From the sequence record PQ850628.1: a stretch of 64,000 bases of DNA; one strand, given 5' to 3'. The notes below the pieces were generated by a model, which was given only the letters and a program-made list of their open reading frames with translations, ran no database searches and had not been told where the DNA came from. This document shows, in pieces, positions 12,282 to 48,269 of the stretch. The translations under genes and the position numbers were made by a program. Each line of letters starts with the position of its first letter. Within the stretch, counting starts at the first letter, position 1. The DNA comes from Escherichia phage StefiGeyer_Bas88.

Positions 12282-12300
12282 GACCTAAGTCCTATCTCTT

Positions 12301-12312: not shown

Positions 12313-12346
12313 GGAGGTAGGACATTTTTATTTATAAGGAGAAATT

Positions 12347-31058: not shown

Positions 31059-31334
31059 TTAAATACCTTTCAGAGCCGTGTCTAAAAATGCACGGAGATT
31101 AGATTCAGTTTGCATACCTGATAAGCTGTAATGAGCACCACTGTTCTTATCAGGGATGACAAAGGCTGGGATACTGCGAACACCATATTCAATGGCTCGC
31201 TCTCGACCATCACCTTCAGAGATATTTACTTCTTCAACTTCTACACTGTAGTCAGCCACAACCTTCTTAAACACAGGAGCCATAGCTGCACACGGAGCAC
31301 ATGAATTACTATAAAACTTAATTACTTTACTCAT
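31059..31334 (-). CDS. thioredoxin-like protein
   Basis: MSKVIKFYSNSCAPCAAMAPVF with CxxC active site and the cis-Pro region VRSIPAF; ATG at 31334. Confidence 0.6.
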   Translation of the reverse strand: MSKVIKFYSNSCAPCAAMAPVFKKVVADYSVEVEEVNISEGDGRERAIEYGVRSIPAFVIPDKNSGAHYSLSGMQTESNLRAFLDTALKGI

Positions 31335-31524
31335 TCTATTCCTTGTTAATAAACAGGTTGATATGACGCTGGGTAGCAGGAACAACAATAAAAGATTTAT
31401 ACTGACCTTTTGCTAAGTCATGAGCAATCTTCTTTGTCTGACCAAGACCCATCACACAGCCACTAACGATAATGGCATGTGCTTGTAATTCTTCAGGTAG
31501 GTTTAGTTTCACTCTTTAGATTCC

Positions 31525-33540: not shown

Positions 33541-34070
33541 ACCCCTTTAGATGCAACTACACTATTGCTACCATTGTAGCGACCCTTCACTGCATATGAA
33601 TCGTCGCCAGCGTGAGAGTGTTCAAACATAACCATCTGACCAACACGCATTCCAGCACGAACTCGTAAGCTGTGATTGTGGGTAACATTATGGAACTCAA
33701 AGGTCAGCTTACTGTTGTTAAACCCTGCATCAGCCCAACCAGCATGGAGATGGTTTAAACCACAACGAGCCATTGAGGAGCGGAGTACAAACAGACTTGA
33801 AATATTATCTGGAAGGTTAAACTCTTCCATTGAGTGAGCTAAGAAGAACTGTCCCGGAGTGATAACGATACCATCTTCAGGGATTTTTACTTCTTTCCAC
33901 TTGAGGTTTTCTTTAGCATCAATGTCAACAATACCATCAGCCTGCTCTTCAACAAGGATAGTATCACCAATACGGATATCCACACTAGCAGCGTTAACAT
34001 ACTTATGCTCCGCATCTAAAAAGCCATTATCAATAACGCTGTGTAATTCTTGAGAACCTAAAAGACTCAT
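33537..34070 (-). CDS. dcd: dCTP deaminase (dUTPase fold)
   Basis: FVLRSSMARCGLNHLHAGWADAGFNNSKLTFEF matches the dCTP deaminase/dUTPase family core. Confidence 0.7.
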   Translation of the reverse strand: MSLLGSQELHSVIDNGFLDAEHKYVNAASVDIRIGDTILVEEQADGIVDIDAKENLKWKEVKIPEDGIVITPGQFFLAHSMEEFNLPDNISSLFVLRSSMARCGLNHLHAGWADAGFNNSKLTFEFHNVTHNHSLRVRAGMRVGQMVMFEHSHAGDDSYAVKGRYNGSNSVVASKGV

Positions 34071-35503
34071 GAGTTTCTGTTTCCTTGTACAGATGATGCC
34101 AAATTGTTAATCATATTACGAGCTGTTTCACGAGTTAGTGTAACACCTGCTAAGTTGTTATGAAGTTCACCAGAGAGTTCACGAGCAGTAGCCCGAAGCT
34201 CTTCACCAAGTGAAGTGTTAGAGTGAGCCAAACCATTACGACGACCAACAGGTCGAGGAGTTTCGTTAGCGTCATTAGCTAAAGATGCAAAACCAATACG
34301 AGCAGCTTCACGAGCGGCTATAGCTGCTACCCGATCTTCCGTAGGGGTTGGCAAATCACCAACCCCTACACGTTCAATATCACTAGCACGTAGACCCTGA
34401 GTAACAGATCTTACTGTTTCCCATGAACGACGAGAGCGCTGCAAATCATCCATTGATGGAGAAGAAACAGGACGAGCAGTTCCTCCTGAGACATGCCATG
34501 TATGGTTATGCATTCCAGAAGATCGTGCACTACCAAAACTACCGGTGAAAGTATCACGAGGTGCCATTGTACTAGGGGCTGCGAATCTTGCCTGTTGCCA
34601 AGAGTCACGTCTGTCAGTTCCCGGAGTCCAAGGCTGCGTAATTGCTTCAACACCAATAGTGGTTAACTCACTAGACCAATCTGTCTGTAGGTTAACTTCT
34701 TCATCCAGATAGATACGACCCGCTTCCTGAGGAATATTTAATACAGTTTCCATCATCTTCAAGGTGTAGTGGCGACGTTGATTCTGATACAAGTTTACAC
34801 CAGCCATAGGCCCAACTAAATCACTGATCAGATGAACTTCTGGTTCACCAAAAGCTCCCATTGCAAGGTGCATATACTCAGTAGAACTGCTGTAAACTGC
34901 AACTGTTGCTTCAGGCCACTTTTTGTGGACATACTTCATGTCACGACTTGTCACCACAGGGATATCATTAGTATATGCCATTGCAAACATACCTTCGTTC
35001 GACACATACATATCATCGAGAGTCATAAACCCTTGACAGATCATAGGGAAGCGACCGCTCAGAGTATCCATATCCAGAGGAAGGTTAATCATCATCTGAA
35101 TCTTCACTTCATCAATCTCAATTTCCAGAATCTCTTGGAAAGTGAAAAGTGCGTCAGCATAAGTTGTCCCACTAACAGGCTGGACTAAACGAGATGTAAC
35201 TTGAAGTCCCTTACTCTCTGTCCAAGACAAGAAGTTGTCAAGGAACAGTGCAGCATTACCCACGTTAGCAGGGCTGTTTTCCTGACGAGTGTTCCAACGA
35301 AACCCTCCTTGAACTAGGAAGATATCAACATCATTCGGAGTTCGGTTCTGGAAGAACGTATCACGGATAGCACCACCTGCAATAACAGGATAAATACCAT
35401 CAGGGACTACGTTATCTCTGATCAAATTACGAATCAGGTCAAGCCCTACGCTGAGGGCTTCTCCTTCTTGAAGGTTCAATTCAGACAATGGAATCTTAAT
35501 CAT
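34067..35503 (-). CDS. nucleotidyltransferase with CCA-adding/poly(A) polymerase-type head domain and divergent C-terminal region
   Basis: VIAGGAIRDTFFQNRTPNDVDIFL matches the GGxxRD...DxD head-domain signature of class-II tRNA nucleotidyltransferases; C-terminal ~200 aa is low complexity. Confidence 0.45.
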   Translation of the reverse strand: MIKIPLSELNLQEGEALSVGLDLIRNLIRDNVVPDGIYPVIAGGAIRDTFFQNRTPNDVDIFLVQGGFRWNTRQENSPANVGNAALFLDNFLSWTESKGLQVTSRLVQPVSGTTYADALFTFQEILEIEIDEVKIQMMINLPLDMDTLSGRFPMICQGFMTLDDMYVSNEGMFAMAYTNDIPVVTSRDMKYVHKKWPEATVAVYSSSTEYMHLAMGAFGEPEVHLISDLVGPMAGVNLYQNQRRHYTLKMMETVLNIPQEAGRIYLDEEVNLQTDWSSELTTIGVEAITQPWTPGTDRRDSWQQARFAAPSTMAPRDTFTGSFGSARSSGMHNHTWHVSGGTARPVSSPSMDDLQRSRRSWETVRSVTQGLRASDIERVGVGDLPTPTEDRVAAIAAREAARIGFASLANDANETPRPVGRRNGLAHSNTSLGEELRATARELSGELHNNLAGVTLTRETARNMINNLASSVQGNRNS

Positions 35504-35505
35504 TT

Positions 35506-36054
35506 CTACATTTTCCAGTTGAGAGATGGGGGATTCTTATAATCAAATCCAGCCATTTGGCAAAGACACATGTAAACCTTAACTGTCAAGTTAACGTCTT
35601 GCTCACAATACGTGAACATGTCTTCAGTGAAAGCATCCCATGCTTCTTCCTGCTCACCATAATCACCCTTTAGCTCACCCAGAAATTCGCCCCATTGCTT
35701 GAGGCCATGACCACGAGGGCCATGTCTTGGGTCGCCTTTGGGATATTCTGGATTGTCTCCAATACGGTCAGGCTTGAGATAACGACTCAGGCAAAGTGTA
35801 TCGAAAACATTGAAACGGAAGGGTGTTACATGAGAGTAGAATTTAAAGAGAGCTGGTAGGTCAAAATCTATGATATTGTGTCCTACAACTACATCAGCTT
35901 CCTTCAGTTTGTGAAGAGCTTCTTCAATTTGGTGAGGGCGATACCCCCACCGCTCTCCTGAGAGAATATCAAATATCCAGATACACCAGACATTTTGGAT
36001 ACCCTCATAAAGATTATCACCCTCAATATCGAAGGCGAATATTTTCTTTACCAA
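35506..36054 (-). CDS. DnaQ-like 3'-5' exonuclease (stand-alone proofreading domain)
   Basis: Exo I FDIEGD, Exo II HNIIDFD, Exo III YCEQD. Confidence 0.7.
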
Positions 36055-37838
36055 GGTCGTGCCTCCCCGTCTTGTGTTAGAAGGGAAGCTGCATCTTCAC
36101 CATTGGTTAAGACAAACGGATTAGCTTCATCAACTTCATGATCTTCTCGTTCTACAAGACGACCTGTTTCGTTGATGTATTTGGTGTAGCAAACACCTGT
36201 CTGACCATAGTTACGCTCCTTAAGGAGACGTATGATTGACAAATTCTTGCCTAACCCATCTGCTTGCTTATCTCGTTCAAAACCGATGATACACTGACAC
36301 CAACGCATCAGTGAACGTGAACCAGTGAACTGAACCTCTTTCACCTGTCCACCTTCTTCGTGAGGAGCACCACCTGCCGGAGCATTCAAGTGAGATAATA
36401 CAAAAGCAGTGAAGTCTAATTCCTTACACATACCAGCAAGCTCTGAGGCAATCTTACTGATTTCTGTATTCACTTCAGAAGGAGTTAGGTGAGATACCAA
36501 TGCAGTGATGTTATCAAGAATGATAAACTTACATTGATTCTCAACTACCCAAAAGCGAATACACTGCTTAATATCATCCCACTCATTCTGACCGAAGTTA
36601 TCATACAAGAAGAATTTATCAGCATAACGAAGTGCTTCATCACGTAGCTGAGATTCCTCATATTCAACATCAGGTCGGTGGAAAGGTACAGATGCTGACT
36701 TACCTGCAATGTTTTTAACAGACATGCCTACCTTCTCTTCCAAGAAGAAGCCACCACCATTAAACCCATGTTCAAGGCAAAGCCATGCTACCAGTTCGTG
36801 TGCTATCAGGGTTTTACCTGAACCAACACCACCACCGATTGCAACCATCTCTCCCCAACGAATGCCGAAGGTCATTTCATTCAGAGTTTTCCACGGATAA
36901 GGAATACCCCACTCTGCTTTCTTCAGAGCATCTTCTAAACAATCAAAGACAGTAACAGCACCAGCAGGTGATTCCCGCTTCGCTGAATACTTCAGATTGT
37001 TGAATAACTCTTGACCTCGACCAGCGAGTAACATGTCATTTGCATCTTTGATTTCCTTCTCTTGACCATTGTAAGCGAAGGTTCCTTTCGGAATACGAGC
37101 AAATTTAACATGGGGATATAATGCACGACCTTTAGTTAATGCAATCTCACCTGCATCATCATTATCCATGCAGAGCACAATCTCCTCAAAACCATTCAAG
37201 AAGTCACGGTTACGTGAGAGAACGGAAGAGATTGAACCTGCACCAAACGGTAGAGATACACACGCAGGTTTGATGTTTGTAGCGTTCGTGAACGCAGTGA
37301 GCACATGGAAGCCAGACATACAAGAGAGTGGGTCTTCAAAGATGAAGAGTTTCTTGTTGTACACGTCACCACGTTGTGCTTGAGCCATACCGAATAGGTC
37401 AGCTTCTTTAACACTGCCGATGTAATAGAATTTCTTGCTGTCTAGAAGCTTAACTTCATAGCCAACAATGTTTCCATCACGTTCACGAGGGAAGAAGTAA
37501 CTATCAGGAGTTTGCCCATCTGTCTGACTCAAACCGATACGACATTCATATCGTTCAGAGACAGCTTTAGGAATCAAACGACGAGTAAGCTCACCCTGAG
37601 GTAGCTCTAAGCAATCGTCTAAGATCTCTCGGAGTTCTTCAGGGGATAGTTCTTTCTTCTCATTCGGTGTAGGAGTTGTTCCCTTTTCGAAAACTTCATA
37701 ACTACCACAGCGATTACAACTGCCCCACTCTTCACCGGACTCTTCATTTCGGAAGAGAATCATGTGATTGTGGGTCTTATCACGACCATGAGAGATACAT
37801 TCTTTACAACCTGTATCCCCTAAAATGATCTTTGACAT
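36048..37838 (-). CDS. primase-helicase (T7 gp4-like)
   Basis: N-terminal zinc-binding Cys clusters, TOPRIM-like middle, Walker [10 protein letters not shown] and DnaB-family helicase motifs. Confidence 0.85.
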
Positions 37839-37874
37839 GCTCTATCCTCCTTGGAATTCCTTGAGCAGACTTCT

Positions 37875-38081
37875 TCAATAAAACGAACGTATTTCTTCCC
37901 ACACATCATCTTGAAGATTTTTAAAACCCTGTAAAGCTGATTGGGTTCTCATGATAAAGTCTTCAGAATGTTTATTGCGGTCAAGCATACTGACAAACTT
38001 GTCATAGCGGTTAATCTTCCACCGTAACTTTAAGTAGTCAGACTCGAGCTTTCTCAGCTTCTGTCGCTCAGTTACTGTCAT
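37875..38081 (-). CDS. hypothetical small protein (start uncertain)
   Basis: ORF overlaps the GGCT-like gene end; internal ATG likely. Confidence 0.25.
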   Translation of the reverse strand: MTVTERQKLRKLESDYLKLRWKINRYDKFVSMLDRNKHSEDFIMRTQSALQGFKNLQDDVWEEIRSFY

Positions 38082-38499
38082 CCTGATCACCTGCCAGATA
38101 CGCTGTCCAGTCGCCAGATTCAACCAAAACATCTTGTTCTTCGTCGATATGATAAATCCATGCTTCCACAGTCTCGCCATTATCCAGCACCACTGGAATC
38201 AGTGTACGATTGTAGAAAGTGTATGGATTGTCTTTACCACGATAACCTTCCAGACCGTCATACGGACCTTCCAGACCAGCTTGGGTTGTTTCAAAGACTT
38301 CTACACGAACAGGCTTGCCATTGCTGTCATGCACCAGAGATACACTTGGGAAGTATGCTGTGCAATACTGATACAGGTTACAGTTGTTCACTGTCCAACC
38401 TTCACCAATAGACACACCACCTGCACGAGCATTGATAGCGTGGTTGTGTTGACCTTTACGAAGAGAACCATACGTTGCAACTAATACTTTATCAGACAT
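38068..38499 (-). CDS. gamma-glutamyl cyclotransferase (GGCT/AIG2)-like protein
   Basis: N-terminal VLVATYGSLRKGQHNH matches the YGSL motif of the GGCT/AIG2 fold; 143 aa. Confidence 0.45.
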   Translation of the reverse strand: MSDKVLVATYGSLRKGQHNHAINARAGGVSIGEGWTVNNCNLYQYCTAYFPSVSLVHDSNGKPVRVEVFETTQAGLEGPYDGLEGYRGKDNPYTFYNRTLIPVVLDNGETVEAWIYHIDEEQDVLVESGDWTAYLAGDQDDSN

Positions 38500-38564
38500 T
38501 ATATTACCTTTTGTGTTTCAGTTAAATTCGAACTAGCCTCCTCTTTCGAAGAGGCTAAAGCAAA

Positions 38565-38750
38565 TTATTCTACTTCGAAGTGTTTGATCACACCAGTCAA
38601 TACATCAGATTGGAACGTACCTACTAACTCTGCGCCTCGGAAGAAATTGACATTTGTTCCAAGTGTTTCAAAGCGTTCTGCTTGAATGTCCAGAGATTGA
38701 ATATTCCCTTCTGAGTTTACTGTACGAAACATGATTGTGTATTTATTCAC
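38565..38750 (-). CDS. hypothetical protein
   Basis: 61-aa ORF. Confidence 0.25.
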   Translation of the reverse strand: MNKYTIMFRTVNSEGNIQSLDIQAERFETLGTNVNFFRGAELVGTFQSDVLTGVIKHFEVE

Positions 38751-38989
38751 AGAGTTGTTACTCCCTTATCTTCTTGTGCAATTGCGATGATACGCTCAAC
38801 ACATTCCATTGAATATTTATCACCTCGTTTAAGGAAGGTGACAATTGCAGAGAACTGATTACCAATCATTCTCTTGTTTGTGATTCCAAACTCTTCACAG
38901 AGTTGGTTAATAGCTTTACGAGAACCAACAATCAGAGGTTCTTTTTGTTCGGTCATTCCACGACTGATCAAATCTTCGATAGACAACAT
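38747..38989 (-). CDS. hypothetical protein
   Basis: 80-aa ORF. Confidence 0.3.
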   Translation of the reverse strand: MLSIEDLISRGMTEQKEPLIVGSRKAINQLCEEFGITNKRMIGNQFSAIVTFLKRGDKYSMECVERIIAIAQEDKGVTTL

Positions 38990-39009
38990 TACAAATTCCT
39001 TTTGTTTAA

Positions 39010-40257
39010 TTACAGAGTTACTGCTACTTCACTACCTTCAACAGTTACAGACTCTAACTTACGAGGGTTGTGGACTTGTTGCGGATGAACCGGAACGTTC
39101 CAGCCACTGCGGTAGAAGTTACGACCATCGCAGAACAGAATGACATTGGCAGACATTGCATTAGGTTGCAGGTTGTTATGAACATGACGAATATCTGCAA
39201 TCCAGTAACCACGAGACAACACATAACCAGTAGGTGCATTACGGATTGTCTGAGTATTCATCTGACCTTCCAGTTGCATTTCTTCAGGAACTACATCCAC
39301 TGAATCAACCGGCTGTGCGACTTGGCCTTCCAGTGCGAAGTTTTCATCATCAGCACTTTCACTGTCAGCAACCAATTCACCATCTCCATCTTCAATTGGA
39401 GCTTCAACAGGTGTTGCATAAACCACTTTATACTGAGGAGTATAGAGAGGGTTTTGAGCTTTAACAAACTCAAGGATATTGTGACGGTAGATATCCAGAG
39501 TTGTGCCAGTTAGGCCCGGTGCTGTATTAACTTCCAGTACCCATGCTTCTTGACCTTTGGTGATGATATCAACTGCACCGAAATCTAGACCCATTGATTC
39601 AACAGCTTTCACTGCGTTGATCAGAGAGGCATCGTTCGGAACGTCTGTGAAGGAACTTGAGTAAACCCAACCAGTGTGATGGTTACGAACATCTTCACGA
39701 TAGTTAGGGTCTTCACGATAACCGTTACGACGAATCTTTTTCTGAACATAGGTGATAGCACCTTTGAACACATGGACACGCCATTCACGACGTGGGCCTA
39801 GAATACCTTTGGTGTACAGTTCAGCTTGACCAACTGAATCACGAGGCTCTACAACAATGATACCTGAACCAGAGTGACCAGTCAGTTCATGACGTTCATA
39901 CACAATGTTGCCAGAGTTTGACCACTCCTGAGCAGTTGATTGAACATCTGTATACTCAACAGTTTTAACACCTGCTTGGTCCATTACACTGAAAGCGCGA
40001 CGTTTGTTCGCTGCCATATGTAAGGCTGCGGTACGGTTAAGAACAGTTGCAGAACCAAAGAAGGATTCAGGATAGCGACGGTTCCCGTAGTTCACAACCA
40101 CATCACCCTCACGAGAACGCCAGCGACTGTTCTCTGAAAGAAGACCCATTACGTTAGCGTTGATACGTTCATCACGGATAGTATCGTTAATGGCAGTTAC
40201 CAGAGCGTTAACAGAATCAGAAGGGCCATACGGAAGAACACGGATACGAGTAGTCAT
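39010..40257 (-). CDS. ATP-grasp ligase, RimK-like
   Basis: GLDFGAVDIITKGQEAWVLEVNTAPGL matches the RimK-type ATP-grasp C-terminal motif; acidic insert EDGDGELVADSESADDENF. Confidence 0.6.
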   Translation of the reverse strand: MTTRIRVLPYGPSDSVNALVTAINDTIRDERINANVMGLLSENSRWRSREGDVVVNYGNRRYPESFFGSATVLNRTAALHMAANKRRAFSVMDQAGVKTVEYTDVQSTAQEWSNSGNIVYERHELTGHSGSGIIVVEPRDSVGQAELYTKGILGPRREWRVHVFKGAITYVQKKIRRNGYREDPNYREDVRNHHTGWVYSSSFTDVPNDASLINAVKAVESMGLDFGAVDIITKGQEAWVLEVNTAPGLTGTTLDIYRHNILEFVKAQNPLYTPQYKVVYATPVEAPIEDGDGELVADSESADDENFALEGQVAQPVDSVDVVPEEMQLEGQMNTQTIRNAPTGYVLSRGYWIADIRHVHNNLQPNAMSANVILFCDGRNFYRSGWNVPVHPQQVHNPRKLESVTVEGSEVAVTL

Positions 40258-40259
40258 TT

Positions 40260-40490
40260 TTAGATACCTTTTAGTTTAAGAATTTCGTTACGACAGGATT
40301 GAATTTTAACTTCGATTTCCCAATACTTGGCGAACATCTCGTCTTCTTGGTCATCGCTTGGTGAATCAATTAGGTTAAAAGCAAACGGATACAGCTTTCG
40401 CTGCTCCGTTACCAGTTGTTGAAGTCGGAGTTGTTGATACTCCAGCATTGTCAGGTGAGGCTTAGCTCCCTTGCTTGACATGAGGCTCAA
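40260..40490 (-). CDS. hypothetical small protein
   Basis: 76-aa ORF inside the cluster. Confidence 0.3.
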   Translation of the reverse strand: MSLMSSKGAKPHLTMLEYQQLRLQQLVTEQRKLYPFAFNLIDSPSDDQEDEMFAKYWEIEVKIQSCRNEILKLKGI

Positions 40491-40695
40491 CTTTAATCCC
40501 CTTCAATTTCACATAGTCAGCCAACACGTTGTTGATAACGGTTGGGAAAGGGATTTCAACTGGAGAGTTAACCAGTCCCCCAATACCTTCTTGCATCCAT
40601 TTCTGAATAGCTCGAAGGTTATCACATCCTGTGCTTGTCATTGGGATACGTCGAGTGGTTACAACGTTATCCAACATCAATTTACGAACTTCCAT
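40462..40695 (-). CDS. hypothetical small protein
   Basis: 77-aa ORF inside the cluster. Confidence 0.3.
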   Translation of the reverse strand: MEVRKLMLDNVVTTRRIPMTSTGCDNLRAIQKWMQEGIGGLVNSPVEIPFPTVINNVLADYVKLKGIKVEPHVKQGS

Positions 40696-40706
40696 AACTT
40701 CACCTC

Positions 40707-42710
40707 TTAATGTTTACCTTTACAGTAATCTGAATTACAGATCACCCTGTTTTCTTTGTTTAGTGAGCAAATTTCTGCATCACGCCACGGAATTTGTTTA
40801 TAACAGACCGCACAAAACCCAATTGAAGTCCAGAGGGCTTTTGTGAACTCAGCTGTTCGTTGTCCGTCGTAACTGACAACTGTTTTTCGGAGAGTTGTTT
40901 GCTTTTCTGGAAATGTTTCCGCTTTCTCAGCGGGCACCTCCTTTGGGGCATTCTTTGGACCATAAACAGAGATGGCATAGGTATCGCCACCACGTTTTTC
41001 CAAATAAGAGTTTGGAACATCAGACAGCTCAATATCACCAGAACGTTTAGCTGAACTAGCCATTACAGTCATTCGGCTAAGCATACGCTGATCAACACGA
41101 ACTGCTACTTCAGGGCGACGTGGGTTAGTTGTGTCGACTGCTTTAGTCCAAATGTAACCTTCAGACAATGTAGTGTTAGTCACTTTGTCTTTGATTTCTT
41201 TGGCACAGACATAACAAATATCTTCACCACGAAGTTTACTCATTTCGTTATCAAACTCGAAATCAGTTTTAACATTGCCACATACAGCACAGACACCTAA
41301 AGGAATGTCTTCATCTTCTTCAGACGGTTTGGACAACGCTTCGAAACAGGCCGGATGCCAATATGCTTGGTAAGCGAACACAGCTTTCTTAGCATCTTTC
41401 CATTCAATGTGCTTGTCACAACCGCCACAATCACCATGAGAATGTGATTCCCAGAACTTACGGGTGACTTCCACACCATTCTTAGTGATGAAGGAGTCTT
41501 CTAAATCAAAAGGGATATCATCATCAAAATCAGCGGTGGTGCTTTGAGGCTCCTTATCGGTAGCATCAACAAACAGCCCTGAAGTGAGTACGAGGCGAAT
41601 CATACTGTCCACTTCGGAGATACAAGCAACCGTCCCGCGATACACCACCTTTGGGTTTTCGAGAGCCTTCAAGTATTCACTCTTGGCTACATTATGAACA
41701 TCACCCTCAACATACTCTTGAGCAGCATCATCATAAATATAACCAACCATCTTACCACGGTCAGTGTTGTTGTAAGCGTGGAACTCGTGAGGGATGATAT
41801 CCACACGACCGTCACGACGATACGGAAGACCACGATCGGCAGCCAGTTTATTCTGATCTTCAATCGCTTTACGACGACGAATGTCTCCGCTTGTCACGCC
41901 GGGCTTGTCGTCTTTGTTTCCGTAAATGTCGCTTGTGCTGCTGCTTGACTTGTTTGTCTGTTGGTTCTGATATAGAGAGGAGTTCGAGTAATAGCCGCCC
42001 CAGCGACTCGTTACCGTAAAAACCGGAAGCTTGTGCTCCACCTCTTGAGTCAGAGTCATACGGTTGCCAGACAAATCAAAGATGTATTCAGTTCCCACTT
42101 TACACTCAAAGTGATCATTGATACGGTTCTTGTGTGACTTGGAACGATTAAGAATCCACATCAACATATCTTCTTCAGAAGCACCAAACCAATCCAGACC
42201 ACAACGGGCCAGATGGAAAGGACGTTCATCGTTACGAATGATATGCAGAGTATTGTCTTTGGCGTCATGCCAGATTAAAGTGAACGCACCATCCAACTTC
42301 TGGATAGTCTCTGCTGCGCCGATGGTGTTGATTGAATGACAGATGTTTTCGCTATCAACTTCGAAATTCTTATGATCTGGTAACAGTTCCTGATCTAACA
42401 GTGTACCATTATGAACCAGAGTAATGTCACCATGAGAGAATGGGTGAGCATTTCGAGCATTGACAGCACCACGTGTGGCATGTCGGCTATGACCAACAAT
42501 CCACGATGGAGGAACTACATAGTTCGTAAGCCCCTTAGTAAGATTCGTGTACCCTGTCTGGAGCATGAAGGCATAGGAAGGAAGTGCTTCTTTATAAGAA
42601 AATACTTTTTCATCACCTTTACGCTGACCGAACACACCAGTTGAGTGCTGACCACGGAAGACTCCAGCATACAGAAGCTGGTTGAATACGTCTAAGTCTG
42701 TGGAGGTCAT
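40707..42710 (-). CDS. class-II (Ntn-type) glutamine amidotransferase domain protein with C-terminal zinc ribbons
   Basis: GHSRHATRGAVNARNAHPFSHGDITLVHNGTL matches the GAT-II core; C-terminal CxxC clusters (CGGCDKH, CAVCGN, CYVCAK, CAVCYK); N-terminus is MTSTD, with no Cys at position 2. Confidence 0.55.
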   Translation of the reverse strand: MTSTDLDVFNQLLYAGVFRGQHSTGVFGQRKGDEKVFSYKEALPSYAFMLQTGYTNLTKGLTNYVVPPSWIVGHSRHATRGAVNARNAHPFSHGDITLVHNGTLLDQELLPDHKNFEVDSENICHSINTIGAAETIQKLDGAFTLIWHDAKDNTLHIIRNDERPFHLARCGLDWFGASEEDMLMWILNRSKSHKNRINDHFECKVGTEYIFDLSGNRMTLTQEVEHKLPVFTVTSRWGGYYSNSSLYQNQQTNKSSSSTSDIYGNKDDKPGVTSGDIRRRKAIEDQNKLAADRGLPYRRDGRVDIIPHEFHAYNNTDRGKMVGYIYDDAAQEYVEGDVHNVAKSEYLKALENPKVVYRGTVACISEVDSMIRLVLTSGLFVDATDKEPQSTTADFDDDIPFDLEDSFITKNGVEVTRKFWESHSHGDCGGCDKHIEWKDAKKAVFAYQAYWHPACFEALSKPSEEDEDIPLGVCAVCGNVKTDFEFDNEMSKLRGEDICYVCAKEIKDKVTNTTLSEGYIWTKAVDTTNPRRPEVAVRVDQRMLSRMTVMASSAKRSGDIELSDVPNSYLEKRGGDTYAISVYGPKNAPKEVPAEKAETFPEKQTTLRKTVVSYDGQRTAEFTKALWTSIGFCAVCYKQIPWRDAEICSLNKENRVICNSDYCKGKH

Positions 42711-42817
42711 GTTGCCCCCAGCTAATACGATACCACAAATTTTCTAATCCACCTGAAGGGTAAACCCTTTCATCTAATTAACCTTTAAATGCGCCCTTTA
42801 TCAGAGCGCCCATTGTG

Positions 42818-43918
42818 TTACAGCAGTCGTTCTAATTGCATTTCCAGATGGTCTGGAATGTAATCGGTGATGTTATTATCACTGCTACCTGATTCACGCA
42901 TCAGAGCAAACATGTGACGAATTTCACGAACCGTTGCGATTCGAGTGTTTTCAATCTGAGGGGTGTAATAGGTCATGATCTCTTCATAAACAGAGTTAGC
43001 ATTACCTCGTACATATCCCAAGAAACCGTAGAAGTCACCCATGTCACGCAAGTTGATAAGGATTTCACCATCAGGTCCAGTCTGCTGTACACGAACACGA
43101 CCAACCAGAGTAACAGAATGTTCACGACAGAACAGAATATCACGAGCCAAACGATAACCGCCAGTCAGGTCATCATCATTAGGTGTGTAGTCCAGAGGCA
43201 GATACTGAATCATAGGAGCGAAGCGTAGCTCATTCAGTTTCTCAACATATGCTTCATTGTCCAAATCTGCATACTCAACAGCTAGTTTCTTGAGAACCAA
43301 GAAGCGGTTGACCAGATTAAGGAGTTGGCTTTTCTTCCACTTTGGCTCTGAGATACGAAATTCAACAGAACCAAACTGAGCCAGAGGTAATAGGTTAAGG
43401 GAGGTGTACTTGTCCCAGCTATTAACAAGAGTATTGAAGAAGGCTTCACCATCTCGGTTGAACGCTGCGGAAGCATTCATTACCTGTGCTTGAACAACAG
43501 CAAAGGCAGGACAGAAGTTGCTACGATAGCGATGGTATCCAGAACATTTGAACATCATCTTTTCATAGAACGTCCATCCAAGAATTACTTTCTTCAGGAT
43601 GTTACTATCAGCGTCACGCATATCCATATGAACGTGAGTAGAGCAGCGCCAAGTCCCTTCAGCTTCAGAGTCTTGTACTGCTTCACTCAGATTGTTAATA
43701 GCACTAAGCAATTCTACACCGTTATAAGGCCGTGCACAAACCATCTCACAGCCATCACGAAGTGAACCATCTTCAGTACAAACCCAAAGGTCTGCATCAA
43801 TTTCAGAGGTTCCTTCAACTTCCAGCTCGATGCCAATACCACACTGAAAAGCGATGCTTGGGTGCGGCTCAGCCAGACGAGCATTACGGTATCCAAAAAC
43901 TTGTGCTACGGTTGTCAT
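42818..43918 (-). CDS. amidoligase, glutamine synthetase/GCS2-like (copy 1)
   Basis: GIGIELEVEG and CSTHVHMD motifs typical of carboxylate-amine ligases of the GCS2/amidoligase family. Confidence 0.5.
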   Translation of the reverse strand: MTTVAQVFGYRNARLAEPHPSIAFQCGIGIELEVEGTSEIDADLWVCTEDGSLRDGCEMVCARPYNGVELLSAINNLSEAVQDSEAEGTWRCSTHVHMDMRDADSNILKKVILGWTFYEKMMFKCSGYHRYRSNFCPAFAVVQAQVMNASAAFNRDGEAFFNTLVNSWDKYTSLNLLPLAQFGSVEFRISEPKWKKSQLLNLVNRFLVLKKLAVEYADLDNEAYVEKLNELRFAPMIQYLPLDYTPNDDDLTGGYRLARDILFCREHSVTLVGRVRVQQTGPDGEILINLRDMGDFYGFLGYVRGNANSVYEEIMTYYTPQIENTRIATVREIRHMFALMRESGSSDNNITDYIPDHLEMQLERLL

Positions 43919-44541
43919 AACGTTTCCACCAACTCTACATTATATGATGACAGATCTGAAGAAATATGCTTGAACTTCTCCAGAAGATTTAAAGATTGAC
44001 GACCATTGTCGCCGTAACCAGCAGAAAGATCAACTTGACCTACAAGTGCCCCTTTGTAATAAACTTTACCATCGACAGGGTTGATGTAGATGAAGCGAGT
44101 AACCAGACCTTCGAAGTCAGGATTAAACAGATTATACACCAGCTCTCCCGGAATCGAACGACCCATTGAAGGAGGTGCGCCACGTAATTTGTTCCCCATC
44201 AGACCTTTAGCTCGCTGACGAACAGGGTTGATATGAGTCCAGCTTACCATGTTGTTGCCGTGTTGTAAGTATCCCACATCTGGAGATTCCAGAATAAGGC
44301 TTTGATCAAACACAGGAATGCCCTGAACAACCTGTCGTTCAAACTGCCCTTCGGCGTTCTTAGACCAGCGTTCAACTTCAAAAGTTAAGGCCATTTCTGC
44401 TTCGTGAGAGAAGTCATCTTCTCCAAAGCGGTTTGCTTGGTTCACGTTGAGTACATAAAGAGGTAAGTTAATTCCTCGTTCTGCACGTTGGGCAATCCAT
44501 GTTCCGCAATAATAATGCTGAAAATCTCTTAACAGGCTCAC
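43915..44541 (-). CDS. hypothetical protein in amidoligase cluster
   Basis: 208 aa; start overlaps the upstream stop; no motif. Confidence 0.35.
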   Translation of the reverse strand: MSLLRDFQHYYCGTWIAQRAERGINLPLYVLNVNQANRFGEDDFSHEAEMALTFEVERWSKNAEGQFERQVVQGIPVFDQSLILESPDVGYLQHGNNMVSWTHINPVRQRAKGLMGNKLRGAPPSMGRSIPGELVYNLFNPDFEGLVTRFIYINPVDGKVYYKGALVGQVDLSAGYGDNGRQSLNLLEKFKHISSDLSSYNVELVETL

Positions 44542-44550
44542 GATAACACC

Positions 44551-45357
44551 TTAGATAATCTGGAGTTTAGAGGAGAACTTATCCGCTTCTTTAACATCGT
44601 TGCTATTGATGATGTTGTGAAGCTTTTCGATAGGCAGACGGGAGTGCAGAGACATGAGAATTTCCATATCACAGCCCTGAATAACCTTATCAACTTGATC
44701 GTAAACAAACTTACGAGTGGACTGTTCACCAATCCAGAAGTTCGACAGAGAACGGTATTCAATACCATAATCTTTATAACGAATAGCAGATGCCTTGCCG
44801 TAAAGCTCTTTACGACGAGTGTCCTTATCCATAATTACCGCTGGAAGTGACAAGAAGTAATCACACAGAACACCCAGCATCATCTGAGTCTGTCGAGTTA
44901 CTTCCAAAGACCCTGCAACACCGAGGTGTACGTGACCGCCAGCAGTACGAAGACCTTTGTCTGTCGCTACCGGAGATGGGTTTTTCTGACCAGTGAAGGC
45001 GTTGAAATCAGGAGTACAGCCAAACACAAAGGCTGATGGATGGAATGATTGCAGCTCTTCAGAAGTGTACACATGAGAACTAATCCCAAGTGCAGCTTCC
45101 ATACCACGTTCATTAAGAACTTTGTTGGTCAGATCAATACCACGCTGGATGTTATCATCAAACGCTTCGAACCCTTTCTGTGGGTTAATATCGAATTCAG
45201 CCAGAACGTTGTCTTCTTGAAGACGAACATCAGGGGCCAGATCAATTTTGTTATCTTTAGAACAGCCCAGCTTACCAGCCACAGAGGTGATAATACCAGA
45301 AGCAGTACGAACAAACATTTCAGGGTCAGAACCAATAAGGAAAGCACGCTTAGTCAT
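44551..45357 (-). CDS. amidoligase, GCS2-like (copy 2)
   Basis: RTAGGHVHLGVAGS and EFDINPQ motifs; ATG at 45357 abuts the upstream gene. Confidence 0.45.
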   Translation of the reverse strand: MTKRAFLIGSDPEMFVRTASGIITSVAGKLGCSKDNKIDLAPDVRLQEDNVLAEFDINPQKGFEAFDDNIQRGIDLTNKVLNERGMEAALGISSHVYTSEELQSFHPSAFVFGCTPDFNAFTGQKNPSPVATDKGLRTAGGHVHLGVAGSLEVTRQTQMMLGVLCDYFLSLPAVIMDKDTRRKELYGKASAIRYKDYGIEYRSLSNFWIGEQSTRKFVYDQVDKVIQGCDMEILMSLHSRLPIEKLHNIINSNDVKEADKFSSKLQII

Positions 45358-46300
45358 TGTAATACTCCACAAGTTCATCAAAAAGGGAAACAACACGGGC
45401 ACCAGCTTCTTCTGGTGTCATTGAGGAAGGTACTGCTTGCATCAAGCGTTCAATAAAACTGCGAACAGTAATTCTGTCCATACGCTGATCTAATACTTCA
45501 CGTTTATGGCCTGCACACATTGACCAGAGACGCAACCACTCACTCATACTTTCGTAATAGTCAGGGTCTTGGTCACGACGACGAGCCATACTACGAAGAA
45601 CTCCGTCATTATGGTTTCGTACATAACCATCTCTGTTATCACCAACACCGAACACGTTCTGAACCCATACGTTTTCAGAAAATTCGTCAGTGGTACAGAC
45701 CAGTGGCAAGAATGCAATTGCACTCATTTCGCCAGTAAAATAGGTCGCTGCTGATTCATCATCAGTATCCACATCATGTGAATAATCCCAACGACCAAAG
45801 AAGTTACGACTTAAACCAGCTAAGCGTAAAGCTAAGCCGATTCGTTGTCGCTTGAGTAACTCTTCCTTGTCTTGAACGCCTTCCTGAAGGAACTCCATTC
45901 CCATAAAATCCCCATCCAGATAACTACGGAGGGTCATTAATCCAGTAAACACCTTGTCTGCTGGGTGGTCTCGAAGGTTCACGGCAACTGAGTTCACCGA
46001 AGTGACAGAGAACATGTTTTTATAGCAAGACATTGAGTTAAAAATGTCTGTTGCTTCAACTAAAGCTCTTTCGATATCTTTAGCTGGTACGCCATAAAAA
46101 TTGTGAGGCCAGAAGTTGATAACTCCAACTTCTGAAGTTCTATCACGAAGGCTTGAGAGATTGATACTGTCGCCATTAATGTCTGTAACAGCATACATAT
46201 GCTGACAGTTGAAAGTACCAAAACAAGCTCGCCCTCTGAACACTGACTCACCAAAGTTCTCTGATGGTGTTACCGGAGCAGTCGATGCGGAGATTGACAT
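45350..46300 (-). CDS. hypothetical protein in amidoligase cluster
   Basis: 316 aa; tightly packed with neighbours. Confidence 0.35.
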   Translation of the reverse strand: MSISASTAPVTPSENFGESVFRGRACFGTFNCQHMYAVTDINGDSINLSSLRDRTSEVGVINFWPHNFYGVPAKDIERALVEATDIFNSMSCYKNMFSVTSVNSVAVNLRDHPADKVFTGLMTLRSYLDGDFMGMEFLQEGVQDKEELLKRQRIGLALRLAGLSRNFFGRWDYSHDVDTDDESAATYFTGEMSAIAFLPLVCTTDEFSENVWVQNVFGVGDNRDGYVRNHNDGVLRSMARRRDQDPDYYESMSEWLRLWSMCAGHKREVLDQRMDRITVRSFIERLMQAVPSSMTPEEAGARVVSLFDELVEYYND

Positions 46301-46308
46301 ATTCGCCT

Positions 46309-47526
46309 CTATTTATTGAAGAATAATTTTTCCAAAATGTTTTCCCACTCTTCTGAGGGACGTACTGTATAATTACTACCTGTCAGTCCATTGGACATAC
46401 TACTGATAATGTTATACATGTTGTAGCTTCGAGCTGAAGCTGTTTCATTGTTCCAGTTATAACCGAACACAATTTTAGCAAAAGATGTTTCAGATTCAGC
46501 CACCTCTCGGATAAATTCAACCAAGAGTGACTTTTCTGTGATGATTGGGCGGGTATCTTCCGACAGATGGCAATATTGAGGCAAAAGGATTGGCAAGAAC
46601 ATCGAGTTGTTCACTCGACAATCACGAACACCTTCACTGCGATAGATCAGACTGGAGAAGTCTTCATCACGAAGATGACCTTCACCTCCAGTGTATTCAC
46701 ACTGTCGCCATTTGGTCTGGCGAGGCTCAACCATTGTACTACCAACACCCACTGTATACAGAGATGCTTGGAAGATACAGGAATCGTAATCATTCCCTGT
46801 TAAAGCAACACGTTCGTTACCGAACACATCCACTGAAGAGTTGATCAGTCGGCTGAATGCAAGAGAGGCTAAAGGAGACCAGCCCTTCTTATACATCTTG
46901 TTCAACATTTCATACACAGCAGATTTTTCATCATCTGTATAGAATGTGCGATTCAACATCAGATAGAACAGAGCACGATCAGCGGGACAGCCATCAGTGC
47001 AAACACCCATGAACCCTACTTCATGCCATACCAGACATGAGTCAGAGTCTTTGTCCATGAATGCTGCAAAGGTTTCCATAACAACACGATCAGTGATGTC
47101 AGGACGGTTGTTTTCTTCTGCCCACGTTTCCACATGAGAAGGAGGACGAGGGTCTTCATTTTCTAACCCTTCACGGAAATACTGAGTAGCGATATATTCA
47201 GTATCACCATAACGTCTTACACCGTGAGCTGGAAGATGTGTTCCGGAGTTCCAGATATACTTGATTTCAGACATAGGCAACATATTCTCAAGAACGTTCT
47301 CTTCAGCAGTGCCTTGACGAACCATCATATTTCCACTCCACACCTTGATGCGGATATTCCAGCCGAAATTACTATCGTATGTATTATAGTAATCAGGATC
47401 ACCATCTTCATCATCGTCATAATCACCACCCTGATAGTAACCTGCTTTCAGGAAACCATAACAAGGGGGCCAGACGGTTACAACGTCTTCTGATTCTTTC
47501 CAGCTTTGAAGTGTTACAGGGAACAT
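46309..47526 (-). CDS. hypothetical protein in amidoligase cluster
   Basis: 405 aa with acidic N-terminal stretch GGDYDDDEDGDPDYY. Confidence 0.35.
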   Translation of the reverse strand: MFPVTLQSWKESEDVVTVWPPCYGFLKAGYYQGGDYDDDEDGDPDYYNTYDSNFGWNIRIKVWSGNMMVRQGTAEENVLENMLPMSEIKYIWNSGTHLPAHGVRRYGDTEYIATQYFREGLENEDPRPPSHVETWAEENNRPDITDRVVMETFAAFMDKDSDSCLVWHEVGFMGVCTDGCPADRALFYLMLNRTFYTDDEKSAVYEMLNKMYKKGWSPLASLAFSRLINSSVDVFGNERVALTGNDYDSCIFQASLYTVGVGSTMVEPRQTKWRQCEYTGGEGHLRDEDFSSLIYRSEGVRDCRVNNSMFLPILLPQYCHLSEDTRPIITEKSLLVEFIREVAESETSFAKIVFGYNWNNETASARSYNMYNIISSMSNGLTGSNYTVRPSEEWENILEKLFFNK

Positions 47527-47537: not shown

Positions 47538-47900
47538 TTACTCTGCTACCAAAAGGCTCAGAGATTTACGAATGTAGGCAATGCTACGGAAGTTTCGATA
47601 GTTCTCTTGGAAGCGCATCTTTTCAAATTCTGCTTCCTGAAGTTCTACCTCTGCTGCATTGTATCCTGCCACAGCCAAACTCACCACATCCTGAGGTAAG
47701 ATATTACGACGACGAATAAGATATTTATTCGCCTTTAGTTTGCTTTGTGCACGAGCCATTTTGGCCTTTGCCGCCTTAATGCCATGAGCAATCCAGAGCA
47801 GTTGCTGCTCCAAATCATTCTCGTCCATGCCACCCAAATCATTTGCTACTTTATGCAGCGTAGACAGGTTCACATGGCCTTTGATGGGGCGTAGGTTCAT
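47538..47900 (-). CDS. hypothetical protein
   Basis: 120-aa helical ORF; ATGA overlap with upstream small ORF. Confidence 0.35.
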   Translation of the reverse strand: MNLRPIKGHVNLSTLHKVANDLGGMDENDLEQQLLWIAHGIKAAKAKMARAQSKLKANKYLIRRRNILPQDVVSLAVAGYNAAEVELQEAEFEKMRFQENYRNFRSIAYIRKSLSLLVAE

Positions 47901-48063
47901 AACTTCTCCTGTTTATCACATTGATTGGTCAGCCAGTTGTAAGCCCCTCTGTTGTTCTTGCTTAACTCACAAGATGCAAAAGAATAGGTTCTGACAAACC
48001 CCACGGTGGCTAAGCAAATAAAGATTGCTGCCAATAAGAACTTAACTTTCAACTTATTATCCA
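47899..48063 (-). CDS. small membrane/exported protein (not in ORF track, <60 aa)
   Basis: Translates to MDNKLKVKFLLAAIFICLATVGFV...; stop overlaps the next ATG. Confidence 0.3.
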
Positions 48064-48269
48064 TACAACCTCTTCTTTGAACTTAAAAAAGGACTCTCCT
48101 AAGAGAGCCAAGCTTTAAGGCCAATTAAATAGATATCACCCAATATCTGTGGATAACCTGCTCTTAAAATATTCTATCCGACGGATGTTCGAGGACTATT
48201 CCTCTCCCTAGCATCGGCCCCATACGGGTAAGATTAAATTAAGTTTAGGTTAGTTGAGCCAGAATAGCT

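What the first reader, a model, noticed from the sequence alone, without database searches (positions are those of the whole stretch)
38068..47526. Operon-like cluster of two GCS2-like amidoligases, a class-II glutamine amidotransferase, a RimK-like ATP-grasp ligase and a GGCT-like cyclotransferase
Eleven tightly packed - strand genes, several with overlapping start/stop codons. They combine two carboxylate-amine ligases (GIELEVEG/CSTHVHMD and GGHVHLGV), a GAT-II domain (HATRGAVNARNAHPF...HNG), an ATP-grasp of the RimK type (GLDFGAVDI...VLEVNTAPGL) and a GGCT/AIG2-like enzyme (YGSLRKG). Together that is the toolkit for making, transferring and recycling gamma-glutamyl or peptide linkages. Four interspersed proteins (208, 316, 405 and 120 aa) have no recognisable motif and could be scaffolds or substrates. 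Comparative genomics has, as far as I recall, predicted amidoligase-GAT-ATP-grasp associations in phages as peptide-tagging or small-molecule systems, but I know of no biochemical characterisation. The target (virion protein, host protein, nucleotide or metabolite) is open.
Basis: partly seen in the sequence, partly recalled or inferred. Interest (0 to 1): 0.85.

Follow-up and report, generated by a model that had tools for sequence, protein, structure and literature searches.

The report
Phage amide-bond ligase gene cassette
This is the well-conserved but never biochemically tested "phiEco32-type" cassette of three amide-forming ligases, a glutamine amidotransferase and a gamma-glutamyl cyclotransferase found in many podophages; the gene calls are right, the cassette was already predicted in 2009, and what it modifies is still unknown.

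Summary
The window is a Kuravirus-like (Gordonclarkvirinae) E. coli phage, 98.7% identical to phage TH43. Profile searches confirm GGACT, a RimK-like ATP-grasp, a class-II glutamine amidotransferase (GAT), Amidoligase_2 and the "phiEco32-like COOH-NH2 ligase type 2".

The cassette is not new. It is the archetype of a system predicted by Iyer et al. in 2009. Later papers call it a putative "peptidoglycan modification cassette". I found no biochemical study.

Things I add:
- The GAT has its catalytic Cys1 only if translation starts at an ATT codon.
- The five enzymes and a ~200-aa partner keep their order, next to the primase/helicase gene, in Kuravirus, LUZ24-like and Zobellviridae phages. A cyanophage has the enzymes in another order, without the partner.
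- The 208-aa protein models as a tandem small beta-barrel. Its R..K-G loop is modelled with low confidence and recurs in the relatives inspected.
- The 405-aa protein gives a confident model with no PDB match. It is probably a distant paralogue of the 316-aa protein.
- One small ORF is the orthologue of gp79, the phiEco32 RNA polymerase regulator, so it is not part of the chemistry.

All enzymes look cytoplasmic. Best reading: an ATP-dependent pathway that builds and trims a gamma-glutamyl or amidated conjugate. The target is open.

The parts
38068..38499 (-). Gamma-glutamyl(amine) cyclotransferase, AIG2/GGACT-like, 143 aa
   Evidence: Pfam GGACT E 4.7e-16. PHROG 2520 E 1.6e-42. Orthologues in LUZ24 and CW02. 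64% identical to phiEco32 gp77.
38747..38989 (-). 80-aa orthologue of phiEco32 gp79, an RNA polymerase sigma-70 inhibitor and activator of the phage sigma. It is embedded in the cassette but is not part of the ligase chemistry.
   Evidence: 80% identity over 80 aa to phi32_79. gp79 function from PMC8948821 and PMC12276001.
39010..40257 (-). RimK-like ATP-grasp ligase (residues ~1-290), then an acidic linker and a ~70-aa C-terminal domain that also occurs as a stand-alone phage protein family
   Evidence: Pfam RimK E 6e-4, below the cut-off. PHROG 2599 E 1e-171 and PHROG 20552 on residues 340-409. Profile A4 hits RimK 5zct/4iwx at E 7e-9. The GLDFGAVD...LEVN.APGL motif is invariant across four phage groups.
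40260..40695 (-). Two small overlapping ORFs (76 and 77 aa) between the GAT and the ATP-grasp. The 77-aa one matches the position of an 80-aa DUF7195 (PF23825) gene in distant relatives.
   Evidence: 84% and 63% identical to phiEco32 gp82 and gp81. Privateer-like contigs carry an 80-aa PF23825 gene at this position; this is a match of position only, no sequence comparison was run.
40707..42740 (-). Class-II (Ntn) glutamine amidotransferase domain (residues ~1-250) plus a ~430-aa C-terminal region with three Cys-rich, zinc-ribbon-like motifs. Translation probably starts at ATT 42740.
   Evidence: GATase_6 E 9.2e-15. An in-frame CGIVLAGG follows the ATT, behind AGGTGGA. The same ATT start is annotated in Bas87 and phiEco32. 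LUZ24 and CW02 start ATG-TGT, giving MCG.
42818..43918 (-). Amidoligase_2 (COOH-NH2 ligase type 1), 366 aa
   Evidence: Pfam PF12224 E 1.7e-6, above the cut-off. PHROG 7469 E 2e-143. Invariant E33, E35, D50, E58, H95, H97 and E186-F-R188 across five divergent phages.
43915..44541 (-). 208-aa tandem small beta-barrel protein. Its stop overlaps the Amidoligase_2 start. The loop INPVRQRxKGLxGNK is conserved and modelled with low confidence.
44551..45357 (-). phiEco32-like COOH-NH2 ligase type 2, 268 aa from ATG 45357 (the maximal ORF runs to 45402)
   Evidence: Pfam PF14395 E 4.4e-8. tblastn finds it in 310 phage records. Invariant D11, E13, E54, H142, H144, E200 and R202 across five phages.
45350..46300 (-). 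316-aa protein of unknown function, probably a distant paralogue of the 405-aa protein
   Evidence: PHROG 13102. Shares the motifs PAD[RK]..LM..R and W.Q...G[HY].R[DN] with the 405-aa family, although hhalign probability is under 1%. hhalign 99.8% to the 287-aa gene at the same position in Privateer-like contigs.
46309..47526 (-). 405-aa protein whose confident model matches no solved fold, the first large gene of the unit
47538..48064 (-). Leader genes of the unit: a 120-aa basic protein and a 55-aa protein with one hydrophobic N-terminal segment. Membership in the system is uncertain.
   Evidence: PHROG 11370. A 126-aa gene sits at the same position in distant relatives. Hydropathy maximum 2.13 for the 55-aa ORF. 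Terminator-like hairpin just upstream at 48109-48092.

Best explanation
This is the phiEco32-type amidoligase cassette. It is a cytoplasmic enzyme set with no phage-sigma promoter of its own, presumably read from upstream host-type promoters.

Shown:
- Two COOH-NH2 ligases (Amidoligase_2 and type 2), a RimK-like ATP-grasp ligase, an Ntn glutamine amidotransferase with an intact Cys1, and a GGACT-type cyclotransferase.
- Their key motifs are conserved across very divergent phages.
- In Kuravirus, LUZ24-like and Zobellviridae phages the gene order is kept, next to the primase/helicase gene.

Inferred from what these families do:
- Each ligase activates a carboxylate with ATP, as an acyl-phosphate, and joins it to an amine. 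That allows up to three amide bonds.
- The amidotransferase hydrolyses glutamine to supply ammonia that turns a carboxylate into a carboxamide.
- The cyclotransferase removes a gamma-glutamyl group with a free alpha-amine as 5-oxoproline and frees the amine. This is either a deprotection or maturation step, or recycling.

My preferred, unproven version is that the substrate is not mature cell wall. I favour a gamma-glutamyl-amine conjugate handled in the cytoplasm, either a small molecule or a group carried on the conserved Lys-Gly loop of the 208-aa beta-barrel protein. That protein's gene always directly precedes Amidoligase_2, so it would act as adaptor or carrier. The fast-evolving 405/316-aa pair would supply a lineage-specific step or target recognition.
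For: - Family calls.
- Catalytic-type residues invariant at 22-41% identity across Kuravirus, LUZ24, CW02, CVT22 and Lbo-JY46.
- Cys1 restored by the ATT start, which is also annotated in relatives. ATG-TGT in LUZ24 and CW02.
- Same gene order upstream of primase/helicase in LUZ24, CVT22 and CW02 and in UFV-P2. Identical order in metagenomic relatives only 27-39% identical.
- The cyanophage Lbo-JY46 has the same enzymes in a different order and adds two Peptidase_C26 proteins, a family of gamma-glutamyl hydrolases. That points to gamma-glutamyl chemistry.
- The nearest solved relative of the ATP-grasp is RimK, an alpha-L-glutamate ligase.
- No transmembrane or signal segment in any enzyme.
- The homologous cassette in Pseudoalteromonas phage HP1 is expressed immediately after infection.
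- No phage-sigma promoter consensus inside the cassette.
- The 208-aa protein: barrel model, low-confidence loop, and an R..K-G motif that recurs in LUZ24 gp17, CW02 gp8, CVT22 gp57 and the six distant homologues inspected.
Against: - No enzyme of either COOH-NH2 ligase family has a solved structure or a known substrate. The chemistry is extrapolated from superfamily membership.
- The carrier-loop idea rests only on conservation and low model confidence. A basic loop could equally bind nucleic acid or a partner enzyme.
- The 208-aa family was not detected in the cyanophage cluster.
- The 405/316-aa pair was not detected by sequence in LUZ24 or Zobellviridae. The structural link to CW02 gp70 is weak (TM 0.27-0.32).
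- The published hypothesis is peptidoglycan modification, and nothing here excludes action on cytoplasmic murein precursors.
Confidence: 0.5

Rival explanations
1. Peptidoglycan modification, the published hypothesis. The three ligases build unusual peptide linkages on murein stem peptides or their cytoplasmic precursors. The GAT amidates a D-Glu or meso-DAP carboxylate. The altered wall blocks superinfection or tunes lysis.
For: Later papers attribute this to Iyer et al. 2009 and Hardies et al. 2013. From general knowledge, each enzyme class has a murein precedent: Ddl and D-aspartate ligase are ATP-grasp enzymes, and MurT/GatD and AsnB/LtsA-type amidotransferases amidate stem peptides. The ATP-grasp profile also gives weak hits to D-Ala-D-Ala ligases (E 1e-3).
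Against: No experiment supports it. All proteins look cytoplasmic. No Mur-ligase, transpeptidase or export component is in the cassette. A cyclotransferase needs a free alpha-amine on the gamma-glutamyl residue, and the N-acylated D-Glu of a stem peptide has none (family knowledge). These are strictly lytic phages, for which remodelling the wall of a doomed cell has no obvious pay-off. The closest solved ATP-grasp is RimK, not Ddl.
Confidence: 0.17
2. Post-translational tagging of a host or phage protein. The ligases attach glutamate, or a short amidated peptide, to a lysine or a C-terminal carboxylate of a target as part of host takeover or counter-defence. This would resemble RimK acting on ribosomal protein S6, or PafA attaching Pup.
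For: RimK is the nearest solved relative. GS-fold ligases can tag proteins, as PafA does (general knowledge). The cassette diverges much faster than the neighbouring replication genes: 42-79% identity against 94% for the primase. That fits components that track variable partners. The HP1 homologue is expressed early. A host-takeover regulator, the gp79 orthologue, lies inside the unit.
Against: No tag-like small protein is conserved across the phage families. The repeated small proteins of Zobellviridae owe their shared acidic tails largely to an embedded Shine-Dalgarno sequence and an overlapping ATG. GGACT enzymes act on free gamma-glutamyl-amines rather than on folded proteins (family knowledge). 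None of the ten proteins scanned matches a model in the PADLOC library of defence-system proteins.
Confidence: 0.2
3. Modification of DNA or the nucleotide pool. The cassette decorates a base with an amino-acid or amide group, and this explains the strong resistance of Gordonclarkvirinae to restriction-modification (RM) systems.
For: The BASEL study reports these phages as remarkably resistant to RM systems without any known modification pathway. In the three podophage families examined the cassette abuts the replication genes. Amidoligase and amidotransferase genes co-occur with thymidine-hypermodification genes in viral metagenomes. The window carries 24 EcoRV and 8 EcoRI sites. Tudor/KOW-like barrels and zinc ribbons can bind nucleic acids.
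Against: Pfam scans of the cassette proteins and of ten other large ORFs in the window found no 5-hmU DNA kinase, aGPT-Pplase, DpdA or dUMP hydroxymethylase; the thymidylate synthase is ThyX. The genome strongly avoids restriction sites (CCWGG 4 against 74 expected, CTGCAG 0 against 15.6, 6-mer palindromes 594 against 793). That suggests its DNA is exposed to restriction. The gDNA of U17, a LUZ24-like phage with the cassette, was cut by 11 of 16 restriction enzymes.
Confidence: 0.1

Closest known systems
The phiEco32 / LUZ24 / RIO-1 'putative peptidoglycan modification cassette' (Iyer et al. 2009; Hardies et al. 2013; Pfam PF14395 and PF12224)
   Same: It is the same cassette. Every gene from the 55-aa leader to the GGACT has an orthologue in phiEco32 in the same order, at 35-84% identity. 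The five enzymes recur in LUZ24, UFV-P2, CW02 and CVT22.
   Different: Nothing fundamental. This lineage (ECBP2/TH43-like) has very diverged 405-aa and 316-aa genes (42% and 53% identity). It lacks the homing-endonuclease insertions seen in some relatives.
Gamma-glutamyl cycle and glutathione enzymes (GshA/YbdK-type ligase, GshB ATP-grasp, GGCT/ChaC)
   Same: The enzyme classes match: a ligase that Pfam files with the carboxylate-amine ligases, an ATP-grasp ligase and a gamma-glutamyl cyclotransferase.
   Different: No sequence-level membership in GshA, GshB or YbdK: the NCBIfam search gave no such hit and the PDB sequence searches were empty. The cassette also has a second ligase, a GAT and three conserved proteins with no counterpart in that pathway.
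Pathways that use gamma-glutamylation as a transient handle: E. coli Puu (PuuA ligase, PuuD Peptidase_C26) and butirosin BtrJ (ATP-grasp) / BtrG (cyclotransferase)
   Same: The logic matches: make a gamma-glutamyl-amide, work on the molecule, then remove the glutamyl group by hydrolysis or cyclisation. The cyanophage version of the cassette carries two Peptidase_C26 genes beside the GGACT gene.
   Different: This analogy comes from general knowledge, not from detected homology to PuuA, BtrJ or BtrG. No oxidase, decarboxylase or acyl carrier protein is present.
RimK / LysX family of alpha-L-glutamate (amino-acid) ligases with protein or carrier-protein substrates (S6, LysW)
   Same: Best solved match for the ATP-grasp (E 7e-9). 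A small non-enzymatic partner protein is encoded in the cluster.
   Different: The phage enzyme scores far below the NCBIfam RimK/LysX cut-offs (28 bits against 143). The candidate partner is a 208-aa tandem barrel with a Lys-Gly loop, not a protein with an acidic C-terminal tail.

Membership tests
phiEco32-type amidoligase cassette (Iyer 2009 / Hardies 2013) | Co-occurrence in one transcription unit of COOH-NH2 ligase type 2 (PF14395), Amidoligase_2 (PF12224), a class-II GAT, a RimK-like ATP-grasp and a GGCT/AIG2 protein | tested here: met
   All five found on the minus strand between 38068 and 45357.
phiEco32-type amidoligase cassette (Iyer 2009 / Hardies 2013) | Orthology and synteny with the phiEco32 genes gp77-gp90 | tested here: met
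   One-to-one BLASTP matches in the same order. 95.7-98.7% DNA identity to ECBP2 and TH43.
Class-II (Ntn) glutamine amidotransferase | Cys as the first residue after Met removal, plus the conserved Arg/Asn-Gly/Asp glutamine-binding residues | tested here: met
   Met only with the ATT start at 42740, which gives M-CGIVLAGG. HATRG...NAHPF...HNG is present. Use of the ATT start was not tested experimentally.
Class-II (Ntn) glutamine amidotransferase | A recognisable acceptor (synthase) domain fused to the GAT, as in GlmS, PurF or AsnB | tested here: not met
   Only residues ~55-215 match any profile. The ~430-aa C-terminal region has no Pfam or NCBIfam hit. The database label 'GlmS-like aminotransferase' is therefore unfounded.
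Pfam COOH-NH2 ligase families PF12224 and PF14395 | Metal- and ATP-binding acidic residues, a His-x-His motif and an E-[FY]-R motif | tested here: met
   Invariant E33/E35/E58/H95/H97/E186-F-R188 (Amidoligase_2) and D11/E13/E54/H142/H144/E200-Y-R202 (type 2) across five divergent phages. The fold itself was not modelled, and there is no PDB relative by sequence.
RimK family ATP-grasp (alpha-L-glutamate ligase) | Score above the curated family cut-offs | tested here: not met
   Pfam RimK 19.9 bits against 21. TIGR00768 28 bits against 143. It works like a RimK-type ATP-grasp (E 7e-9 to the structures) but is a separate, divergent family.
Thymidine hypermodification pathway (5-HMUDK / aGPT-Pplase) | Presence of a 5-hmU DNA kinase, aGPT-Pplase and dUMP hydroxymethylase | tested here: not met
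   No such Pfam hits in the cassette or in ten other large ORFs of the window. The thymidylate synthase is ThyX.
Peptidoglycan modification system | Demonstrated change of muropeptides or murein precursors | not testable with these tools
   Needs muropeptide LC-MS. The literature offers only inference.

The most novel reading that the evidence does not exclude
The cassette makes a new kind of covalent modification of phage DNA or its precursors: an amide-linked amino acid or carboxamide, made independently of the known 5-hmdU-kinase route. This would account for the so far unexplained resistance of Gordonclarkvirinae to type I-III restriction. The tandem barrel protein and the zinc-ribbon tail of the GAT would hold the nucleic acid.
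Probability: 0.1. Interest if true: 0.9.

Novelty: already known. Interest (0 to 1): 0.45.

Why it matters
The cassette occurs in at least 310 sequenced phage records, including Kuravirus and LUZ24-like phages that are candidates for therapy. It takes up about 12% of a 77-kb genome. It has kept its composition, and in the podophages its order, across hosts from E. coli and Pseudomonas to marine bacteria; a cyanophage has the enzymes too. After some 16 years nobody has reported what it makes.

Relatives that plate on E. coli K-12 now exist (Bas86-93). The question has therefore become directly testable with deletions, metabolomics and mass spectrometry. Any outcome would be a new piece of phage biochemistry: a wall modification, a protein tag, a carrier-bound metabolite or a DNA modification. 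The finding as submitted, however, re-discovers a known prediction.

Tried and rejected
- Sequence and profile searches of the 405-, 316- and 208-aa families and of both COOH-NH2 ligases against all PDB sequences gave nothing.
- hhalign of the 405- and 316-aa families against LUZ24 gp14/gp15 and CVT22 gp67 found no similarity. Whether those positional analogues are homologous stays open.
- I considered the 8-14 small proteins with acidic tails in CW02 and CVT22 (LLEENV, SLENE) as LysW- or Pup-like tags. I rejected this as primary evidence. At DNA level the tail is GGAGGAGAAT-GTATGA, a Shine-Dalgarno sequence plus an overlapping start. An unrelated gene ends with the same nucleotides but different amino acids.
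- I looked for a fusion of the 208-aa domain to an enzyme. An exhaustive search found 85 clusters, almost all stand-alone. The four longer members scanned have no Pfam domain in their extra part. The N-terminal extension of the cyanophage amidoligase is not related to it.
- A PADLOC scan of the cassette proteins found nothing.
- The phage-sigma promoter consensus TAATGTATA has no exact match in the cassette.
- The primary papers were not available: Iyer 2009, Hardies 2013 and Savalia 2008. Their content is cited second-hand.
- Several loci did not reach the scripting machine, so some cross-phage comparisons were done pairwise with the tools instead.

Full report
**What the window is.** DNA of 38000-48000 matches 98 phage records. 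The best is Escherichia virus TH43 at 98.7% over the full length, then ECBP2 at 95.7% and a large set of Kuravirus and Gordonclarkvirinae phages at about 89%. The region is the leftward, non-structural arm of a phiEco32-like podophage genome. It lies directly upstream, in transcription order, of the primase/helicase, the polymerase exonuclease subunit and the dCTP deaminase.

**Checking the observation.** Pfam confirms GGACT (E 4.7e-16), GATase_6 (9.2e-15), Amidoligase_2 (1.7e-6, above its cut-off) and PF14395 'Phage phiEco32-like COOH.NH2 ligase-type 2' (4.4e-8, above its cut-off). The RimK domain hit is marginal (19.9 bits against 21). I aligned the ATP-grasp with its LUZ24, CW02, CVT22 and Bas87 orthologues. 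That profile hits solved RimK structures at E 7e-9 over about 205 residues, well ahead of cyanophycin synthetase and D-Ala-D-Ala ligases.

The span holds twelve ORFs rather than eleven. The 120-aa protein lies just outside the stated end. Start/stop overlaps are real.

**The GAT start codon.** The ORF as listed begins MTSTDL and has no N-terminal cysteine, so it would be a dead Ntn amidotransferase. Ten codons upstream and in frame the sequence reads ATT-TGT-GGT-ATC-GTA. This encodes CGIVLAGG, the canonical class-II N-terminus, seven bases after AGGTGGA. Bas87 and phiEco32 annotate the same ATT start. LUZ24 and CW02 have a plain ATG-TGT. The enzyme is therefore probably active and translated from a rare ATT start.

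**It is a conserved cassette, not a chance cluster.** The type-2 ligase is found by tblastn in 310 phage records from Escherichia, Pseudomonas, Vibrio, Aeromonas, Proteus, Salmonella, Cronobacter, Klebsiella, Citrobacter, Salinivibrio and a cyanobacterium.
- In LUZ24 (gp14-gp23), UFV-P2, CVT22 and CW02 the five enzymes recur just upstream of the primase/helicase. LUZ24 and UFV-P2 keep this window's order; in CVT22 and CW02 the GAT precedes the ligases.
- The cyanophage Lbo-JY46 has the five enzymes in a different order. It adds a class-I GAT and two Peptidase_C26 proteins.
- Metagenomic Privateer-like contigs have proteins only 27-39% identical to those here. They keep the entire order from the 126-aa leader to the primase.
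- Across these phages the putative catalytic residues of all three ligases are invariant.

**The unknown proteins.**
- *Relatives of the 208-aa protein.* Its gene always directly precedes Amidoligase_2. It aligns over its full length with LUZ24 gp17 (hhalign 75%, E 2.6e-5). CW02 gp8 and CVT22 gp57 sit at the same position and are homologous to each other. CW02 gp8 gives only a weak C-terminal match to the family (42% probability). All of these, and the six distant homologues I inspected, carry an R-x(2-3)-K-G motif.
- *Size of the 208-aa family.* It is tiny: 85 clusters among 1.84 billion representatives, almost all stand-alone.
- *405-aa protein.* It gives a very confident model (pLDDT 88.8, pTM 0.90). 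Nothing in the PDB matches it. In the viral structure library it matches only proteins from related podophages. Cronobacter phage GAP52 and Aeromonas phage LAh_8 each give two matches. One weak match is CW02 gp70, which sits at the head of the CW02 cassette.
- *316-aa protein.* It shares two motifs with the 405-aa family. It is clearly orthologous to the 287-aa gene at the same position in Privateer-like contigs. I read the two as a diverged paralogous pair.
- *80-aa ORF.* It is 80% identical to phiEco32 gp79. gp79 is a characterised factor that shuts off sigma-70 transcription and activates the phage sigma. It is a passenger in the cassette.

**Expression and location.**
- No enzyme has a hydrophobic segment. 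Only the 55-aa leader ORF does.
- A terminator-like hairpin precedes the unit.
- The phiEco32 phage-sigma promoter consensus has no exact match inside it. Exact copies lie further downstream, at 27856 and 21692. The unit therefore probably depends on upstream host-type promoters.
- In the Pseudoalteromonas phage HP1 the homologous genes are expressed immediately after infection.

**What it most likely does.** The families involved give a clear chemical outline:
- three ATP-dependent carboxylate-amine ligations;
- glutamine-derived ammonia for an amidation;
- cyclotransferase removal of a gamma-glutamyl group.

The extra Peptidase_C26 genes in the cyanophage strengthen the gamma-glutamyl theme. 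The target cannot be read from sequence. I weigh four readings.
1. *Cytoplasmic small-molecule or carrier-bound conjugate.* This is my preference. The ligase families, GGACT and C26 enzymes typically act on small gamma-glutamyl amides. A conserved non-enzymatic partner with an exposed Lys-Gly loop is encoded next to a ligase.
2. *Protein tagging.* RimK is the nearest structure. The cassette evolves much faster than the adjacent primase (42-79% against 94% identity to phiEco32).
3. *The published peptidoglycan idea.* It has precedents for each enzyme class but no data. It has to act on cytoplasmic precursors, and it fits poorly with a cyclotransferase.
4. *DNA modification.* This is attractive because Gordonclarkvirinae are unexplainedly resistant to restriction-modification systems and because amidoligases accompany thymidine-hypermodification genes in viromes. 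Three things weaken it. The known pathway genes were not found. This genome strongly avoids restriction sites. The DNA of a LUZ24-like phage that carries the cassette is cut by most restriction enzymes tested.

**Comparison with what is known, and novelty.** This is the archetypal cassette itself. Pfam PF14395 is named after phiEco32. Papers from 2014 to 2025 list the same genes and cite Iyer et al. 2009 and Hardies et al. 2013 for a cell-wall or superinfection hypothesis. I found no biochemical work. The finding is therefore already known as a prediction.

Details I did not see in the literature I could read:
- the ATT start;
- the barrel fold and conserved loop of the 208-aa partner, and its weak relatives in LUZ24-like and Zobellviridae phages;
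- the confident but unmatched model of the 405-aa protein and its probable paralogy with the 316-aa protein;
- the embedded gp79 orthologue;
- the uneven evolutionary rates.

**Verdict.** The function remains an open and now testable question. Interest is moderate.

Noticed in passing
window 42732-42754 (- strand): The glutamine amidotransferase appears to start at a rare ATT codon behind a strong Shine-Dalgarno sequence. The same start is annotated in Bas87 and phiEco32, while LUZ24 and CW02 use ATG. This may keep expression low or regulated.
   Followed up: partly
window 38747-38989 (- strand): The 80-aa ORF inside the cassette is the orthologue (80% identity) of phiEco32 gp79, a sigma-70 transcription inhibitor and activator of the phage sigma.
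   Followed up: yes
whole window: Strong avoidance of restriction sites: CCWGG 4 against 74 expected, GATC 131 against about 240-300, CTGCAG/CCATGG/AGTACT/GGTACC all 0, and 6-mer palindromes 594 against 793 expected. Yet there are 24 EcoRV and 8 EcoRI sites in a phage group reported as resistant to restriction-modification systems.
   Followed up: partly
window 34067-35503 (- strand): A 478-aa protein with a Pol-beta-type nucleotidyltransferase signature (GGAIRD...NDVDIF) and a long, low-complexity C-terminal half. It has no Pfam hit. It sits between the polymerase exonuclease subunit and the dCTP deaminase, and the BASEL authors flagged it as a possible DNA-modification gene.
   Followed up: no
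window 36048-47526 compared with phiEco32 (L012): Very uneven divergence: primase/helicase 94% identical, but cassette genes 42-79%. The 405-aa protein is the fastest-evolving large gene.
   Followed up: partly
L007 (CW02) 2-8049 and L008 (CVT22) 5600-15100: The Zobellviridae cassettes are interleaved with 8 and 14 small paralogous proteins (63-106 aa) that look SH3-like by sequence pattern. They end in P-x-L-L-E-E-N-V or S-L-E-N-E. At DNA level the tail encodes a Shine-Dalgarno sequence plus an overlapping ATG for the next gene.
   Followed up: partly
L013/L014 404-2949 and L009 4849-9058: A PRPP synthetase and a nicotinate phosphoribosyltransferase lie upstream of the cassette in both Privateer-like contigs and the Leptolyngbya phage. 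They are directly adjacent in the cyanophage and about 7 kb away in the Privateer-like contigs. This could be an NAD-salvage module, and a link to the amidating enzymes is conceivable but untested.
   Followed up: no
window 30177-30827, 31059-31388, 31963-32529 (- strand): The phage encodes ThyX (not ThyA), a thioredoxin-like protein with a CAPC motif, and a protein with a partial ferritin-like domain hit.
   Followed up: no
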